IMG/VR virus record: IMGVR_UViG_3300045988_101944
DNA from: a virus
Length of the DNA stretch: 55,877 bases
Strand: one strand, 5' to 3'
Shown here piece after piece: positions 8,144 to 46,690 of the stretch. A program made the position numbers and the translations under genes. Each line of letters starts with the position of its first letter. The first letter of the stretch is position 1. The notes under the pieces are model-generated. The model made no database searches. It was not told the DNA's origin and saw only the letters and a program-made list of their open reading frames with translations.

Positions 8144-8881
8144 TCACTCTAAATTCAAATAACACATTATGCCGCAGTCAGGAAAAATTTCAGTGTTCAT
8201 ATTCCCTCGTTTCGGGTCTAATTCGTCAAGAAATATAGGTTTGCCGTCACTGTCTTTCAGTATTGAATAACCAACTTCTCTTTCCAACTTGGCTCTGCTT
8301 TCAAATACATCGGGAAAATCCTTGCGGATGTTATTCCAGTAGCCCATGCCGCCTTTTCATCCGATGCAGTTATTATTCGGATAACCCAATTCATACATTT
8401 TCGGTCGGGCAAAATCAAAAGTCCTTTCAAACAGTCCGTGAACCTCCTCTTTAGAAAGCTCTCGGTCAATAAGTGGAAATTCATGTTTTGCTTGCGGATT
8501 AGCTTCGATTGTTCTCTCTGCTCGATTTTTCTCTTTCAAATCAAATCCCCACACATAAGTCAAATCACAATCTTTGTGTTGTTCTTCCCACTCTTTACGA
8601 ACTCTCTTTTTTAACCAGTTTGTGCAAGGAGCAAAACCGTTAGCGGGATTTCTAAAACCACCAAACACTCTTACACAATCTTCAACGCTCCTATATTCCT
8701 TACTGCTCAAAACCTGTATTTCTTTCCCGATTGCTTTCTCACAATCTTTAATAAATCTCAAACTATCTGAATGTTGGTCTGATATATCAATGTAAATCCA
8801 TTCGTCTACATTCCCTGCTAAATATCCAGCCATAAAACTTGATATTCCTGCACTTATCCAACATACATTTAATTTTGTCAT
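8144..8881 (-). CDS. PAPS-reductase / N-type ATP-pyrophosphatase-like protein interrupted by a single in-frame TGA (8357-8359)
   Basis: Track ORFs 8357..8881 and 8144..8347 share one frame. The read-through context is YPNNNCIG-TGA-KGGMGYWNNIRKDFP. The N terminus has an SAGISS (SGGxDS-like) loop. Confidence 0.6.
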
Positions 8882-40758: not shown

Positions 40759-41967
40759 TTATTCGTTTGCTTTGAAATTGTAAATCGGTTTAATAATGTC
40801 AACTATTTCAACAGTATCTTTTATATTTCCAATTATTTCATCCATTGTTTTATATGCCATAGGGCTTTCATCAATCGTAGATGTATTTACGGATGTTGTA
40901 AATATTCCATCCATTGCTTTTTGATACTCTTCTAGCAAAATGCTTTCTTTTGCTTTTGACCTGCTCATTGTTCGCCCTGCTCCATGCGGTGCTGAATAAT
41001 TCCAATCTTCATTTCCTTTGCCAATTCCCAAAATGCAACCGTCACGCATGTTTATCGGTATTAGTACCTTTTCGCCTGTTTTTGCAGAAATAGCACCTTT
41101 ACGAACAATATTTGTATCGTGTTCAATGTAGTTGTGAATTGTTTGAAATCGTTCTGTTTCTTTTGTAACTTTCCAACCCATATAGTAACAAATAATGCTC
41201 TGAATGGCTCTTCTGTTAATTTCCGCAAACTCTTGACATAATTTCATATCGTGCAAATACATTTCTCTATGTTTTCCAACAAGATATGATAACTCTCTAG
41301 GGATTTTAGTTGTATTTGCTTCGTAGGACTGCTTTAATTCTTTGATAGCCTTGCTGATTTCTCTTTCTCTTTTACATTTTTTGTATTCAGCAATCAATTT
41401 CTCACTATCTTGTTTAAAATTCGATTTTCCCGATATATCATCAATCGCCATTTGCTGATATATTTCTGCAACTTGCTTTCCGACATTTCTACTTCCCGAA
41501 TGAATAACAAGATATTTATTATTCTTGCTATCGCTATCAACTTCGATAAAATGATTGCCGCCTCCCAACGTGCCGCAACTCCTTTTCAGCCAATCTATAT
41601 TTTTCAACTGTTCCTTGCAATACAATTTTTCAATAATATCGCTTGCGACAGACGAGTTTTCTTCTCCATGAACTTTTCTACCGCTTGGAACATATTCTCT
41701 AATGATGTTATCCAATCTCTCAAAATCAATATCAATATTCCCCAAGTTTGTAGTAAGCATCCCACAGCCTATGTCAACTCCAACAATGTTCGGTATTACT
41801 TTTTCTCCTAAATCAGCAGTAAACCCGATAACACACCCTGCTCCTGCATGAACATCTGGCATAATTCTTATCTTACAATCCGAAAATGCTGGCTGTTTAA
41901 CAAGCGTATATATCTGATTTAACGCTTCCTGTTCTATATTTTCTGTAAATATTTTCAAATCAGCCAT
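40759..41967 (-). CDS. rtcB: RtcB RNA 3'-phosphate/2',3'-cyclic-phosphate to 5'-OH ligase
   Basis: 402 aa with the RtcB motifs MPDVHAGAG, GVDIGCGM, GGGNHFIE, HSGSRNVG and SAPHGAGR. Confidence 0.9.
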   Translation of the reverse strand: MADLKIFTENIEQEALNQIYTLVKQPAFSDCKIRIMPDVHAGAGCVIGFTADLGEKVIPNIVGVDIGCGMLTTNLGNIDIDFERLDNIIREYVPSGRKVHGEENSSVASDIIEKLYCKEQLKNIDWLKRSCGTLGGGNHFIEVDSDSKNNKYLVIHSGSRNVGKQVAEIYQQMAIDDISGKSNFKQDSEKLIAEYKKCKREREISKAIKELKQSYEANTTKIPRELSYLVGKHREMYLHDMKLCQEFAEINRRAIQSIICYYMGWKVTKETERFQTIHNYIEHDTNIVRKGAISAKTGEKVLIPINMRDGCILGIGKGNEDWNYSAPHGAGRTMSRSKAKESILLEEYQKAMDGIFTTSVNTSTIDESPMAYKTMDEIIGNIKDTVEIVDIIKPIYNFKANE

Positions 41968-45036: not shown

Positions 45037-45093
45037 ATTTCTTACCTCTCACTTAAATTATTAAATCACCTATGAACTCACAGTTGTCGTAAA

Positions 45094-45203
45094 ATAGTTG
45101 CCGTGGGAGTCGAACCCACCCGACCCAAACAATGCTCGACTGCTTTTGAATCTGCAAATTCTACTTGCAGAAGTGTTTTTCGTTGACCGATAATGAGCAA
45201 CTA
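45094..45203 (-). ncRNA. 109-nt tRNA-like gene with an 8-bp acceptor plus 5-bp T stem (tRNA-Sec/allo-tRNA-like geometry) and non-standard internal arms
   Basis: Folded by eye. Acceptor TAGTTGCT/GGCAACTA; D-position TTATCG-GTCAA-CGAAAA; hairpin TCTGCAA-GTAGAAT-TTGCAGA; extra arm AAGCAG-TCGAGCA-TTGTTT; T arm GTGGG-TTCGACT-CCCAC. Confidence 0.45.
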
Positions 45204-45271
45204 CTATCCATACATCTCCCATCGACCGGAACTATTGCAGTAGTGCCCGACCAAGTGGAGATAAAGATAAG

Positions 45272-45339
45272 CACGCCCGGAAAGCATCGAACTTTCGTTA
45301 GAGGTTTTGGAGACCTCATTCTGGCCAACAGACAGACGC
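45272..45339 (-). tRNA. tRNA-Trp(CCA) with a reduced D arm
   Basis: Anticodon arm GAGGT-CTCCAAA-ACCTC; T arm GAAAG-TTCGATG-CTTTC; acceptor GCGTCTG/CGGGCGT (3 G.U pairs); D arm only CTG-TTGGC-CAG. Total 68 nt. Confidence 0.55.
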
Positions 45340-45371
45340 ATATAAAGTTTTCACGATAGTTTTGAGGATAA

Positions 45372-45500
45372 GTAGATAGGTGTGGATTTGCACCACACAG
45401 GAAAGACTTACTTTCTCATAATGTCCCCTGAGAAATACTTTCTCTGTATTGCGTTTTGCAATAGACATTTCATAGCGTTTACCTATTCCGCCACTATCTA
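45372..45500 (-). ncRNA. 129-nt tRNA-like gene whose anticodon domain is replaced by a roughly 75-nt multi-hairpin insert
   Basis: Acceptor TAGATAG/CTATCTA; D arm GCG-GAATAGGTAAA-CGC; T arm GTGTGG-TGCAAAT-CCACAC (G at T-loop position 2). The insert has the closing stem AATGTC/GACATT, with hairpins TATTGC-AAAAC-GCAATA and GAGAAA-GTA-TTTCTC inside it and GAAAG-TAAGT-CTTTC 3' of it. Confidence 0.45.
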
Positions 45501-45584
45501 CCACCCGCGTCGTAACTAGTATTTTTGCGTAGGCATATTATTTGGTTATTCAATATGCCGTCAGTAAACAACAGCATATTGCCA

Positions 45585-45664
45585 TCGGATAGACAGGGCT
45601 CGAACCTGTGACTCCCTCCGCTACCATTACCGCAGTGGGTTTCTCCCAACTGAACTACTATCCG
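45585..45664 (-). ncRNA. 80-nt tRNA-like gene with an anticodon arm 7 nt too long (7-bp stem, 10-nt loop)
   Basis: Acceptor CGGATAG/CTATCCG (perfect); D arm GTTC-AGTTGGGA-GAAAC; T arm ACAGG-TTCGAGC-CCTGT; anticodon region CCACTGC-GGTAATGGTA-GCGGAGG. No 5-bp/7-nt solution exists in any register. Confidence 0.5.
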
Positions 45665-45860
45665 TTATATAGTTTAATTAGCTGCTAAAACAGGTTTCTC
45701 AACTCACAGCATTGCATATCCCCACTACGAACATTGATATGCGTTCCCACTCGAATTGATGTGGTGTGGATTTGAACCGCACATAGCAATCACTTTGCAA
45801 CAGGTAACACCCATACAGGTTTCTTTGCCGACATTGTTTTCTGCACAAGTGTTGACATAA

Positions 45861-45943
45861 CGCAGACACAAGGATTTGAACCTTGACAGCATTTCTGCTG
45901 GATAGCTTAGCAAGCTACTGTGATACCATTACACCATATCTGC
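45861..45943 (-). tRNA. tRNA-Ser(GCU), type II
   Basis: Acceptor GCAGATA/TGTCTGC; anticodon arm GTAGC-TTGCTAA-GCTAT; variable arm AGCA-GAAA-TGCT; T arm CAAGG-TTCAAAT-CCTTG; discriminator G. Confidence 0.85.
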
Positions 45944-46135
45944 ATAACTGGTCAGTTTCCGTTTTTACTTACTCCACACTGCCCTAAGTGTAAGGTTCTT
46001 TTAGTCAGCGGTTAACGCTATCTTTTGAATAACAACCGCTCAATTCAGTTCCCTGTGCTAAGTTTAACCGGTATATTGATTAGCACCTGCATTTCTATAA
46101 TAAACGCACTAGGAGTGTACTGACAACATCACCAA

Positions 46136-46207
46136 CTGGCATAGCAGGTATCGAACCTACGACCCACAGATTAACAATCTGTTGCTCTACCACTGAGCTA
46201 TATACCA
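46136..46207 (-). tRNA. tRNA-Asn(GUU)
   Basis: TGGTATA-TA-GCTC-AGTGGTA-GAGC-A-ACAGA-TTGTTAA-TCTGT-GGGTC-GTAGG-TTCGATA-CCTGC-TATGCCA-G forms a canonical cloverleaf. Confidence 0.9.
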
Positions 46208-46461
46208 AAATTGCATACACCTCTGTATAGGCTTTTAAGATGGTATGCAAGCACCTGTGTGTTATGGGGGTGTGAAATTTGTAATGGAACTACATTAGTC
46301 CAGTACGGAAAAAGTATGTAAGTTCGGGCATCGTGGGATAGACACCCGAACAACCACACCGAGCCGTGCGATGGCTCTTAACAGCATTCCGCTAGTGTGG
46401 GAAAGGAGTTTTTCTCCGCGATTTTGCAAGAAGAAAAACAAAGATGGCATATCTTGCCAAA

Positions 46462-46533
46462 CTGGGGTAATGGGATTTGAACCCATGATGTAGCAGTCAA
46501 AGTGCTATGCCTTAACCTCTTGGCGATACCCCA
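46462..46533 (-). tRNA. tRNA-Gln(UUG)
   Basis: TGGGGTA-TC-GCC-AAGAGGTTAA-GGC-A-TAGCA-CTTTGAC-TGCTA-CATC-ATGGG-TTCAAAT-CCCAT-TACCCCA-G, with the U1-A72 pair typical of bacterial tRNA-Gln. Confidence 0.9.
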
Positions 46534-46690
46534 TTATTCCGCAAGACTGTTATTGCCTTGCGGATGTGATATGTAATATTTTTATGAAGTACAAAAGATA
46601 TGAATTAAAATACAAATATTAAACAAGTTTCAAAAAATGTTTCACTTTAAATTGTTGGTGCTCTTATTGCCATACTTTATCACCTCAGTT

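What the first reader, a model, noticed from the sequence alone, without database searches (positions are those of the whole stretch)
45094..45203. tRNA-like gene with an 8+5 bp acceptor/T helix, 6-bp D stem, long extra arm and a 7-bp anticodon-position stem
The hand fold on the minus strand gives these parts in order. Acceptor TAGTTGCT/GGCAACTA is 8 bp, with one possible further G.U pair. Next come CA and the D arm TTATCG-GTCAA-CGAAAA (6 bp including one A.A). After the linker ACACT comes the hairpin TCTGCAA-GUAGAAU-UUGCAGA. An extra arm AAGCAG-UCGAGCA-UUGUUU follows, and then the T arm GTGGG-TTCGACT-CCCAC. A 13-bp acceptor/T stack, a 6-bp D stem with a tiny loop and a long variable arm are the hallmarks of bacterial tRNA-Sec. 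They also recall the allo-tRNAs described from Clostridia and metagenomes. However, the loop has U at position 2 and A at position 6, which would present AGA rather than UCA. A UCA triplet lies just 3' of the hairpin (GAUUCAAAAG) but is not in any stem-loop I could draw. The element is therefore a non-canonical tRNA of unclear identity. This is noteworthy because the same genome carries a gene with an in-frame TGA (8357).
Basis: partly seen in the sequence, partly recalled or inferred. Interest (0 to 1): 0.65.

Follow-up and report, generated by a model that had tools for sequence, protein, structure and literature searches.

The report
Phage tRNA-like RNA without an anticodon
The element is a real, conserved tRNA-shaped RNA gene in a gut phage's tRNA cluster, but it is not a selenocysteine or other decoding tRNA: it is the 3' half of a roughly 180-nt two-part structured RNA of unknown role, whose two hairpin tips are perfectly complementary.

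Summary
The 8-bp acceptor stem and 5-bp T arm at 45203-45094 (minus strand) are real. They keep pairing through compensatory changes among 138 copies from related gut-phage contigs. Covariation supports a different fold: one long arm made of stem 45171-45167/45143-45139, an AGUA/(G/A)AA internal loop of sarcin-ricin type, a 4-bp helix and the hexaloop UUGCAG. No 7-nt anticodon loop or UCA triplet is conserved. ARAGORN (default settings) and the Rfam tRNA and tRNA-Sec models find no tRNA here. The element always follows a 67-nt covarying hairpin (45270-45204) that abuts acceptor nucleotide 1. That hairpin's invariant loop, CUGCAA, is the exact complement of UUGCAG. The unit is one cassette in a mosaic tRNA array. 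It does not co-occur with RtcB. The in-frame TGA at 8357 is a lineage-specific 3-nt deletion in a CxxC motif, not recoding. Best reading: a non-decoding tRNA-like RNA, probably cut out by tRNA-processing enzymes, that acts through its two complementary loops. The structure is well supported. The function is inferred.

The parts
45204..45270 (-). 5' leader hairpin, about 26 bp with small internal loops. It ends at the base directly before acceptor nucleotide 1.
   Evidence: It is present in every copy, and upstream homology breaks about 68 nt before acceptor nucleotide 1, just 5' of the hairpin, whichever tRNA precedes it. It is predicted by RNAalifold and by single-sequence folds of divergent copies. 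Twelve of its 26 pairs changed on both sides with pairing kept.
45235..45240 (-). Leader hexaloop CUGCAA.
   Evidence: It is identical in 71 of 71 distinct extended sequences and in the 7 metagenome copies, even where the stems have diverged. It is the exact Watson-Crick complement of the arm hexaloop.
45196..45203 (-). Acceptor stem, 5' strand (TAGTTGCT).
   Evidence: It pairs with 45102-45095. Three pairs show compensatory changes, in L138 and L139.
45177..45193 (-). D-arm region (TTATCG GTCAA CGAAAA). The inner hairpin is 45190-45180.
   Evidence: Its sequence is almost invariant. RNAalifold predicts the inner 3 bp. There is no informative variation.
45127..45178 (-). Long composite arm that replaces the anticodon arm. 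It consists of a basal helix 45178-45174/45131-45127, stem 45171-45167/45143-45139, an internal loop, an apical helix 45161-45158/45151-45148, and a hexaloop.
   Evidence: The middle stem has compensatory changes in five of its six tested pairs; four pairs (107-110 with 134-137) are paired in every sequence and the fifth is U.U in the window and most copies. The apical helix covaries at two pairs: G-C to C-G in L101, and A-U to G-C in L175. The basal helix rests only on RNAalifold and one A-U to U.G change.
45162..45165 (-). AGUA strand of the internal loop. The partner strand, AAA, is at 45147-45145.
   Evidence: AGUA is conserved in all copies but one (L175, AUUA). The partner strand is AAA or GAA, and GAA occurs in L063, L186, L183 and L175. 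This matches the bulged-G, U-A handle, A-A core of the sarcin-ricin/loop E motif as described in PMC6633198. The three-dimensional fold was not tested.
45152..45157 (-). Arm hexaloop UUGCAG.
   Evidence: It is identical in 70 of 71 distinct sequences. L138 and L166 read GUGCAG.
45120..45126 (-). Connector GGGUCGG between the long arm and the T arm.
   Evidence: It is conserved, and no covarying pairing was found.
45103..45119 (-). T arm GTGGG-TTCGACT-CCCAC.
   Evidence: Three of its five pairs have compensatory changes. The loop fits UUCRANY. It is the only part that any Rfam model recognises.
45094..45102 (-). Acceptor stem 3' strand (GGCAACTA) plus an invariant U at the discriminator position (45094).
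   Evidence: The pairing counts are. Conservation across copies ends 2-3 nt after this point.

Best explanation
The element is the 3' domain of a roughly 180-nt phage-encoded structured non-coding RNA at window 45270-45094 (minus strand). It is not a decoding tRNA.

The RNA has two parts. The first is a 67-nt hairpin. The second is a tRNA-like body: an 8-bp acceptor stem, a small D hairpin and a canonical T arm. In this body the anticodon arm is replaced by a 52-nt arm. That arm carries a sarcin-ricin-type internal loop, a 4-bp helix and the hexaloop UUGCAG.

Inferred mechanism:
- The unit is transcribed as one cassette of the phage tRNA array.
- Its acceptor/T minihelix lets the host's tRNA-processing enzymes (RNase P, RNase Z and the CCA-adding enzyme) cut it out and stabilise it.
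- The RNA then acts through its two invariant, mutually complementary hexaloops, CUGCAA and UUGCAG.
- These loops either kiss each other, closing the molecule or linking molecules, or present the same YUGCAR loop twice to a common partner.
- The likely role is a tRNA mimic or scaffold used during infection. It is not an adaptor in translation.

Shown here: the helices, the cassette boundaries, the strand, the absence of a conserved anticodon loop, and the loop complementarity.

Inferred only: processing, kissing and biological role.
For: - 138 copies were recovered: 131 in IMG/VR loci and 7 in metagenome loci.
- On 18 representative sequences, 25 of 63 pairs changed on both sides with pairing kept. 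Shuffles gave 5.2 +/- 1.5, and 0 of 500 reached the observed value. Cells paired are 95.6%, against 32-43% when partners are slid.
- Several conserved pairs in the window are G.U (for example 5-73, 12-64, 26-52, 31-47 and 81-175), so the RNA is read from the minus strand. The energies agree: -58.3 kcal/mol for the minus strand and -42.5 for the plus strand.
- The leader hairpin occurs only together with the element, and its boundary is fixed whichever tRNA lies upstream.
- The loops CUGCAA and UUGCAG are invariant while the stems beneath them diverge and covary.
- Chance complementarity of two 6-nt loops is about 3 in 10,000 (own estimate from base composition).
- The element occupies a slot in arrays otherwise filled with ordinary tRNAs: Gln, Tyr, Glu, Arg or Ile, Ser, Trp and Met.
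- A second tRNA-like frame in the same array (45500-45372) keeps its acceptor, D and T parts constant. Its 55-87-nt centre differs completely between relatives. This suggests these phages use tRNA frames to carry non-tRNA modules.
Against: - No transcript data exist. The RNA ends, RNase P cleavage between hairpin and body, and CCA addition are all unproven.
- The six loop-loop pairs never vary, apart from one terminal pair lost in L138 and L166. Covariation therefore neither supports nor refutes the kiss.
- The loops could be conserved for a protein or for a DNA-level reason.
- In the window and the main clade, the hexaloop can instead pair with the 5' strand of the middle stem. So the conformation in vivo is uncertain.
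- All copies come from one phage clade at 90-100% identity outside a few lineages. Most compensatory changes therefore rest on four or five divergent lineages.
Confidence: 0.5

Rival explanations
1. It is a decoding tRNA of unusual shape (tRNA-Sec, allo-tRNA, selC*-type tRNA-Cys or a suppressor) that reads UGA, UCU or another codon.
For: - The acceptor/T stack is 8/5, as in bacterial tRNA-Sec.
- The base after the 8-bp stem is an invariant U.
- Both hexaloops fit Y-U-GCA-R, the pattern of a tRNA-Cys anticodon loop. U73 and GCA as the CysRS determinants are recalled from memory.
- The gene lies in a tRNA array.
Against: - No 7-nt loop is compatible with the covarying helices. The apical loop is 6 nt, on an arm about twice the normal length.
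- UCA is not conserved.
- ARAGORN (at default settings) and the Rfam tRNA and tRNA-Sec models give no hit.
- The genome uses the standard code.
- Its one in-frame TGA is a 3-nt deletion.
Confidence: 0.04
2. It is a tRNA gene interrupted by a short intron. The intron is removed by an endonuclease, and the halves are rejoined by the phage RtcB ligase encoded 3 kb downstream.
For: - RtcB is encoded at 40759-41967 on the same strand (Pfam E = 1e-57).
- The last seven bases of the 23-nt region enclosed by the middle stem read UUCAAAA. That would be a good Leu(CAA) anticodon loop.
Against: - RtcB and the element do not co-occur. L007 and L009 have the element but no RtcB. L004, L006, L013 and L014 have RtcB but not the element.
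- No bulge-helix-bulge motif is present. The arm has a 4x3 internal loop and a terminal loop instead.
- The putative anticodon bases vary and covary as stem bases. They read CAA, GAA, CGA and GGA in different copies.
- Every splice register tried by hand gives a non-conserved loop or one that lacks U33.
Confidence: 0.05
3. It is only a processing signal, comparable to a plant-mitochondrial t-element. The tRNA-like minihelix would exist just to be cut by RNase P and RNase Z, so as to separate array transcripts from the downstream mRNA. The rest would have no function of its own.
For: - In the window it is the last element before the DUF1599 gene, 58 nt upstream.
- Some relatives carry a bare acceptor plus T-arm minihelix of about 54 nt at that same place.
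- t-elements are documented RNase P and RNase Z signals (PMC1920247).
Against: - In most copies the element lies inside the array, followed about 158 nt later by a tRNA-Met gene rather than by an mRNA.
- A pure cutting signal does not need a 52-nt covarying arm, an invariant internal loop, a covarying 67-nt leader hairpin, or two invariant complementary loops.
Confidence: 0.15
4. The two hairpin tips do not pair with each other. Each is a binding site for the same protein or other trans partner, for example a dimeric RNA-binding protein that recognises YUGCAR hexaloops on 4-bp A/U stems. Alternatively, each pairs with the anticodon loop of host tRNA-Cys.
For: - Both tips share one design: a 4-bp A/U-rich stem plus a YUGCAR hexaloop, ACUA-CUGCAA-UAGU and GAAU-UUGCAG-AUUC.
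- Strict invariance without covariation is what a shared external partner would produce.
- Sarcin-ricin-type loops are common protein-binding sites (from memory).
Against: - No candidate protein partner was found. The roughly 27 window proteins scanned gave none.
- Perfect 6-of-6 complementarity is not required by this model and would be a coincidence of the UGCA palindrome.
Confidence: 0.2
5. It is a decaying tRNA pseudogene, or a short protein-coding ORF (45222-45070, 50 aa).
For: - ARAGORN fails to call it at default settings.
- A 50-aa ORF spans it.
Against: - Compensatory changes maintain every helix.
- The loops are invariant across 138 copies.
- Single-base deletion variants at alignment column 70 would shift the frame of the ORF.
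Confidence: 0.02

Closest known systems
Bacterial tRNA-Sec, and the allo-tRNA and selC* tRNA-Cys groups (Mukai et al. 2017, PMC5389517)
   Same: All have a lengthened acceptor stem. The 13-bp 8/5 stack equals that of bacterial tRNA-Sec. The D hairpin has a small loop. [quoted passage not shown]
   Different: This element has no 7-nt anticodon loop, no conserved UCA or GCA in a decoding position, and no covarying variable-arm hairpin. Allo-tRNAs have a 12-bp branch (8/4 or 9/3), not 13. The Rfam tRNA-Sec model gives no hit.
Phage T4 RNAC and RNAD (species 1 and 2 RNAs)
   Same: These are stable small RNAs encoded in a phage, beside its tRNA genes according to my recollection, and their function is still unknown (PMC9697503 calls them RNAs of yet unknown functions). 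That they have tRNA-like termini and are processed with the tRNAs is also from memory.
   Different: No sequence relationship was tested or is expected. No leader hairpin or complementary loops are known for the T4 RNAs.
t-elements of plant mitochondria and other tRNA-like processing signals (PMC1920247)
   Same: Both are non-canonical cloverleaves with a well-kept T arm that are read by RNase P and RNase Z rather than by the ribosome.
   Different: t-elements are simple and poorly conserved outside the T arm. This RNA has a large covarying arm, a covarying leader and invariant loops.
YrlA, the bacterial Y RNA with a tRNA-like module (PMC4201824)
   Same: Both are non-coding RNAs that mimic the tRNA T and D arms. 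In YrlA a long protein-binding stem stands where the anticodon stem would be. YrlA is also linked to RtcB operons in some bacteria (from memory).
   Different: In YrlA the RNA ends lie in the long stem and the acceptor-like stem is closed (from memory). Here the long arm is closed by a loop and the ends lie at the acceptor. There is no Rfam hit, and no Ro60 gene was seen among the proteins scanned.
Kissing-loop RNAs: TAR/TAR*, ColE1 RNA I/RNA II, phi29 packaging RNA, and the tRNA-adjacent ornate phage RNAs ROOL and GOLLD (all from memory)
   Same: All have fully complementary hairpin loops able to form a 6-bp loop-loop helix. In phi29 pRNA, ROOL and GOLLD such contacts build multimers. ROOL and GOLLD are often next to tRNA genes in phages.
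   Different: No sequence or Rfam similarity exists. The size is about 180 nt, against 500-800 nt for ROOL and GOLLD. Multimerisation was not tested.
Engineered tRNA scaffolds for expressing recombinant RNA (Ponchon and Dardel, from memory)
   Same: In both, the anticodon arm of a tRNA frame is replaced by a foreign structured RNA, so that the cell processes and stabilises it.
   Different: The scaffolds are a laboratory design. This RNA would be a natural counterpart.

Membership tests
Canonical tRNA (Rfam RF00005) | The covariance model score reaches the gathering threshold (29 bits), or ARAGORN calls a tRNA. | tested here: not met
   There was no match at gathering score or at E <= 10. ARAGORN at default settings finds nothing. 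Only with introns up to 60 nt allowed and the score threshold relaxed (-i0,60 -ps80) does it force an 'Asp(atc)' call with a 59-nt intron.
Canonical tRNA (Rfam RF00005) | A 7-nt anticodon loop with U33 and a purine at 37, on a 5-bp stem, conserved among orthologues. | tested here: not met
The covarying helices leave a 6-nt terminal loop on a 52-nt arm.
Canonical tRNA (Rfam RF00005) | An acceptor stem stacked on a 5-bp T stem with a UUCRANY loop. | tested here: met
   Both helices are 100% paired, with compensatory changes in three pairs each. The loop is UUCGACU or UUCAACU.
Canonical tRNA (Rfam RF00005) | Aminoacylation and use on the ribosome. | not testable with these tools
   This needs in vitro charging and reporter assays.
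Bacterial tRNA-Sec (Rfam RF01852) | An 8-bp acceptor stem plus a 5-bp T stem. | tested here: met
   The stack is 8+5 pairs. Compensatory changes were seen in the three outermost acceptor pairs (3-111, 4-110, 5-109); the five inner pairs, including the closing U.G, never vary.
Bacterial tRNA-Sec (Rfam RF01852) | Anticodon UCA in a 7-nt loop. | tested here: not met
   UCA at 45149-45147 lies partly inside the apical helix. It reads UGA, UCG, UGG or CGG in relatives.
Bacterial tRNA-Sec (Rfam RF01852) | A long base-paired variable arm. | tested here: not met
   The proposed arm shares its 5' strand with a covarying stem, has no compensatory change, and loses pairs in L101 and L138. The remaining connector, GGGUCGG, shows no pairing.
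Bacterial tRNA-Sec (Rfam RF01852) | Conserved in-frame UGA codons to be decoded in the same genome. | tested here: not met
   The TGA at 8359-8357 replaces Cys-Val. It arose by a 3-nt deletion found in none of 80 relatives. ORF lengths fit the standard code.
Allo-tRNA (PMC5389517) | A 12-bp acceptor branch in 8/4 or 9/3 configuration. | tested here: not met
   The branch here is 13 bp, 8/5. The definition was read.
Allo-tRNA (PMC5389517) | A long variable arm and a normal anticodon loop. | tested here: not met
   The same evidence applies as for tRNA-Sec.
Archaeal-type intron-containing pre-tRNA joined by RtcB | A bulge-helix-bulge motif (two 3-nt bulges separated by 4 bp) at the exon-intron borders. 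| tested here: not met
   By inspection of the covariation-supported fold, the arm has a 4-5-nt bulge, a 7-pair helix, a 4x3 internal loop, a 4-bp helix and a terminal loop. The definition is from memory.
Archaeal-type intron-containing pre-tRNA joined by RtcB | Removal of the insert leaves a conserved anticodon loop, and the ligase co-occurs with the element. | tested here: not met
   Every register tried gives variable loops or loops without U33. RtcB presence is independent of the element.
tmRNA | A tRNA-like domain together with a tag reading frame and pseudoknots. | tested here: not met
   ARAGORN in tmRNA mode finds none. The Rfam tmRNA model matches only the 17-nt T arm, at 12.3 bits against a threshold of 47.
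YrlA / bacterial Y RNA | A match to the Rfam model, RNA ends in the long stem, and a neighbouring Ro60 (Rsr) gene. | tested here: not met
   There is no Rfam match. The long arm is closed by a loop. No TROVE/Ro60 domain was found among the 27 window proteins scanned, but not all ORFs were scanned.
Sarcin-ricin / loop E (bulged-G) motif | An internal loop with AGUA opposite GAA: a bulged G, a U-A handle, an A-A pair and a flanking sheared pair (PMC6633198). | tested here: inconclusive
   The sequence fits. AGUA lies opposite AAA in most copies, and opposite GAA in L063, L183 and L186. L175 reads AUUA opposite GAA. The three-dimensional fold cannot be tested here.
Kissing-loop complex | Two hairpin loops with Watson-Crick complementarity that covaries. 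| tested here: inconclusive
   Complementarity is 6 of 6 in 17 of 18 aligned sequences. Five pairs never vary, and one is lost in L138, so there is no covariation either way.

The most novel reading that the evidence does not exclude
The cassette may encode a self-closing or self-assembling RNA particle. In this reading the leader hairpin and the long arm of a tRNA-shaped core join through a 6-bp kissing helix. The particle would display tRNA-Cys-like features: an invariant U at the discriminator position and two Y-U-GCA-R loops. It could thereby trap a host factor that binds tRNA-Cys, or pair with the host tRNA-Cys anticodon loop. That would make it a phage-made tRNA decoy of a kind not described before. 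It would also be a natural example of a tRNA frame used to carry and stabilise a non-tRNA module.
Probability: 0.15. Interest if true: 0.85.

Novelty: new variant of a known kind. Interest (0 to 1): 0.6.

Why it matters
Phage tRNA arrays are usually read as codon-supply or anti-defence tRNA sets. Elements that tRNA finders miss are ignored.

This work shows that one such miss is a conserved, covarying, two-domain RNA with a tRNA frame and no anticodon. The same array holds at least one more tRNA frame whose centre is swapped between close relatives.

If these are functional tRNA mimics or tRNA-scaffolded RNAs, arrays in gut phages hide a class of non-coding RNAs. These RNAs would exploit the host's tRNA-processing machinery. 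That has consequences for phage annotation, for phage-host conflict over tRNAs, and for RNA design.

The study also removes a false lead. Nothing here points to selenocysteine or to UGA recoding in this phage.

Tried and rejected
- **tRNA finders and Rfam.** ARAGORN at default settings, with introns allowed, and at relaxed thresholds gave only forced calls. Rfam at gathering score and at E <= 10 matched only the T arm.
- **Intron models.** I tried, by hand, every split of the 23-nt and 42-nt enclosed regions that would leave a 7-nt loop. UUCAAAA (Leu CAA) and CUUCUG+U (Arg UCU) looked plausible in the window sequence. Both vary or covary as stem bases in relatives, so I rejected them.
- **RtcB partnership.** Rejected on co-occurrence.
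- **Alternative pairing.** Pairing of UUGC in the hexaloop with GCAG at 45143-45140 would expose UCA in a 10-nt loop. It is not kept in L063, L139 or L101.
- **Variable-region hairpins** within 45138-45120. No consistent pairing was found.
- **GTDB genome scan** with the apical-domain pattern. The three hits all lie inside coding sequences and have no tRNA-like context, about the number expected by chance.
- **GenBank phage collection.** No DNA match. The closest phage, Dulem virus 39, has tRNAs and RtcB but not the element.
- **Metagenome scan.** It gave 25 hits, of which 7 are real copies. The remaining hits were not recognised by the model; the one inspected, L181 (and the identically scoring L182), lies inside a coding sequence.
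- **More YUGCAR-tipped hairpins.** A search of the window found no network of them.
- **Literature searches** for a described phage tRNA-like RNA of this kind found none.
Full report
**The observation**

- ARAGORN finds four tRNAs in the window: Gln 46533-46462, Asn 46207-46136, Ser 45943-45861, and an odd "Leu(TAA)" at 45664-45585. It does not find this element.
- Rfam finds nothing at the element, either at gathering score or at E <= 10. A dedicated scan of 45080-45290 matched only the 17-nt T arm, through the tmRNA model at 12.3 bits.
- With relaxed settings ARAGORN forces an "Asp(atc) with a 59-nt intron" call.
- The 116-nt stretch folds better than shuffles, with z = -3.22.

**Homologues**
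- A 26-nt 3' pattern and two other patterns recovered the element in more than 120 IMG/VR contigs of 30-60 kb.
- After pooling there are 131 copies and 31 distinct 114-nt variants.
- One metagenome scan added 7 copies.
- Most copies are 93-100% identical. Lineages L063/L139, L101 (with L168, L177, L185, L186, L183 and L175) and L138/L166 are divergent enough to be informative.

**What covariation shows**
- In both, the acceptor stem (8 pairs) and the T stem (5 pairs) are 100% paired, with three compensatory pairs each.
The extra arm also has no compensatory change.
- The 5' strand of that hairpin, CUGC (45170-45167), instead covaries with GCAG (45143-45140). The pair reads CCAU/AUGG in L063 and L139, CUCGU/ACGGG in L101, and UGUGU/GCACA in L138.
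- Inside this stem lies a 4-bp helix, GAAU/AUUC. Its pairs change G-C to C-G in L101 and A-U to G-C in L175. It closes the hexaloop UUGCAG.
- Between stem and helix is a 4x3 internal loop, AGUA opposite AAA. The partner strand is GAA in L063, L186, L183 and L175. This fits the bulged-G, U-A handle, A-A core of the sarcin-ricin/loop E motif as described in PMC6633198.
- RNAalifold adds a basal helix, AAACA/UGUUU, supported only by one A-U to U.G change.
- The arm that stands where the anticodon arm should be is therefore 52 nt long and ends in a 6-nt loop.

- Upstream homology among copies extends about 68 nt before acceptor nucleotide 1 and then breaks, whichever tRNA lies upstream.
- This leader folds into a long hairpin (45270-45204) that ends at the base before acceptor nucleotide 1.
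- On 18 sequences the full two-domain structure has 25 of 63 pairs with changes on both sides. Shuffles gave 5.2 +/- 1.5, and 0 of 500 reached the observed value. Twelve of those pairs lie in the leader. Cells paired are 95.6%, against 32-43% when partners are slid.
- Several conserved pairs are G.U, and the minus strand folds far better than the plus strand (-58.3 against -42.5 kcal/mol). The RNA is therefore read from the minus strand.
- The leader's apical loop is CUGCAA in 71 of 71 distinct sequences. The arm's loop is UUGCAG in 70 of 71. The same holds in the metagenome copies.
- The two loops are exact complements. Each sits on a 4-bp A/U-rich stem.
- Because the loops never vary, covariation cannot test the pairing.

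**Context**
- The window is a siphovirus-type phage genome with the standard genetic code. It encodes a terminase, an SPP1-type portal, a capsid protein, a G39P-like loader and a Rha regulator.
- Its closest GenBank relative is Dulem virus 39, with 82% identity in the terminase.
- The element lies at the 3' end of a 1.6-kb non-coding array, between a small-terminase-like gene and a block of small genes that ends with RtcB and the large terminase.
- The array is a mosaic of cassettes. Relatives carry different sets of Gln, Tyr, Glu, Arg or Ile, Ser, Trp and Met tRNAs. In most of them the element is internal, followed about 158 nt later by tRNA-Met.
- RtcB is present or absent independently of the element.
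- The 50-aa ORF across the element is not coding. Single-base deletion variants would shift its frame, and substitutions are compensatory in RNA helices.

**The TGA at 8357**
- Reading through it joins two ORFs into one protein with the sequence ...NNNCIG*KGG....
- All 80 relatives read CIGCVKGG, encoded TGY GTN AAR. The window reads GGA TGA AAA, which is a 3-nt deletion.
- It is a private mutation or an assembly error, not a recoding site. It gives no reason to expect a UGA-reading tRNA.

**Most likely mechanism**
- Shown: a two-domain, covarying RNA gene with a tRNA-type acceptor/T minihelix, no anticodon loop, a motif-bearing long arm, and two invariant complementary hexaloops. It is inherited as one cassette in a tRNA array.
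- Inferred: the minihelix makes it a substrate for RNase P, RNase Z and the CCA-adding enzyme, so it is excised and stabilised like its tRNA neighbours.
- Inferred: the loops either form a 6-bp kissing helix or present the same loop twice to a common partner.
- A kissing helix would close a triangle made of the roughly 28-layer leader hairpin, the roughly 20-layer arm and the 13-bp acceptor/T stack.
- In the window and the main clade, the hexaloop can also pair with the 5' strand of the middle stem. It might be an alternative conformer, but it is not conserved.
- Both loops fit Y-U-GCA-R, and the base after the 8-bp acceptor stem is an invariant U. These recall the tRNA-Cys identity set (from memory). 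I record this only as a lead.

**A wider pattern**
- A neighbouring tRNA-like frame (45500-45372) keeps its acceptor, D and T parts nearly constant among relatives. Its central 55-87 nt are replaced by unrelated sequences.
- The Arg(TCT) and Ile(TAT) genes that alternate in one slot share their acceptor and T arms but differ in their D and anticodon arms.
- These arrays seem to evolve by swapping inner modules on constant acceptor/T frames.

**Comparison with known families**
- The element fails the defining tests for canonical tRNA, tRNA-Sec, allo-tRNA (12-bp branch, PMC5389517), intron-containing tRNA, tmRNA and YrlA.
- In kind it is closest to non-decoding tRNA-like RNAs: T4 RNAC and RNAD, whose function is still unknown (PMC9697503), and plant-mitochondrial t-elements (PMC1920247). 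Its architecture is more elaborate than either.
- No Rfam 15 family and no paper found in four searches describes it.

**Limits**
- All copies belong to one phage clade.
- Most compensatory events come from four or five lineages.
- No expression data are available.
- The kiss, the processing and the biological role remain inferences.

Noticed in passing
window 45372-45500 (minus strand): A second tRNA-like frame: acceptor TAGATAG/CTATCTA, a D arm, and a T arm GTGTGG-TGCAAAT-CCACAC with G at position 55. Its acceptor, D and T parts are nearly constant among relatives. Its central 55-87 nt are replaced by unrelated sequences in different phages. It looks like a tRNA scaffold with swappable cargo.
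   Followed up: partly
window 45585-45664 (minus strand): The 'tRNA-Leu(TAA)' called by ARAGORN scores only 35.6 bits in Rfam. It has 21 nt where the model expects 13. By eye it has an 8-pair stem with an A.A mismatch and a 10-nt loop without U33. It may be another non-decoding tRNA-like gene.
   Followed up: no
window 45271-45339 (minus strand): A small 69-nt tRNA-Trp(CCA)-like gene with a normal anticodon arm but three G.U pairs in the acceptor stem and a weak D arm. ARAGORN finds it in the window only at relaxed threshold, but at default settings in relatives such as L007.
   Followed up: partly
window 8357-8359 (minus strand), gene 8144-8881: The in-frame TGA replaces Cys-Val of a CIGCVKGG (CxxC) motif. 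It arose by a 3-nt deletion that is absent from all 80 relatives. The gene is truncated, or the assembly has an error. This is not recoding.
   Followed up: yes
loci L032-L160, slot about 143 nt upstream of the element: tRNA-Arg(TCT) and tRNA-Ile(TAT) alternate in the same slot. They share the acceptor stem TGGGATG/CATCCCA and the T arm, but their D and anticodon arms differ. Gln(TTG)/Gln(CTG) and Asn(GTT)/Trp(CCA) also alternate in other slots.
   Followed up: partly
L002 2969-3022, L003 5924-5977, L027 5924-5977: These relatives lack the element. At the same place, just upstream of the DUF1599 gene, they carry a roughly 54-nt acceptor plus T-arm minihelix with no D or anticodon arm.
   Followed up: no
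window 40759-41967 (minus strand): An RtcB RNA ligase gene lies directly upstream of the large terminase gene. The same arrangement occurs in Dulem virus 39. The gene is present in only some close relatives and is independent of the tRNA-like element.
   Followed up: partly
window 45040-46690 (minus strand): The canonical tRNAs are separated by spacers of about 190-255 nt, long for a tRNA array. The spacers contain hairpins and further T-arm-like sequences, for example around 45830-45760. No Rfam ribozyme or RNA family matched.
   Followed up: no
whole window: The hexamer CTGCAG (the PstI site) occurs once in 55.9 kb, whereas TTGCAA occurs 54 times. TTGCAG occurs 38 times on the coding strand. 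This may reflect restriction-site avoidance.
   Followed up: no
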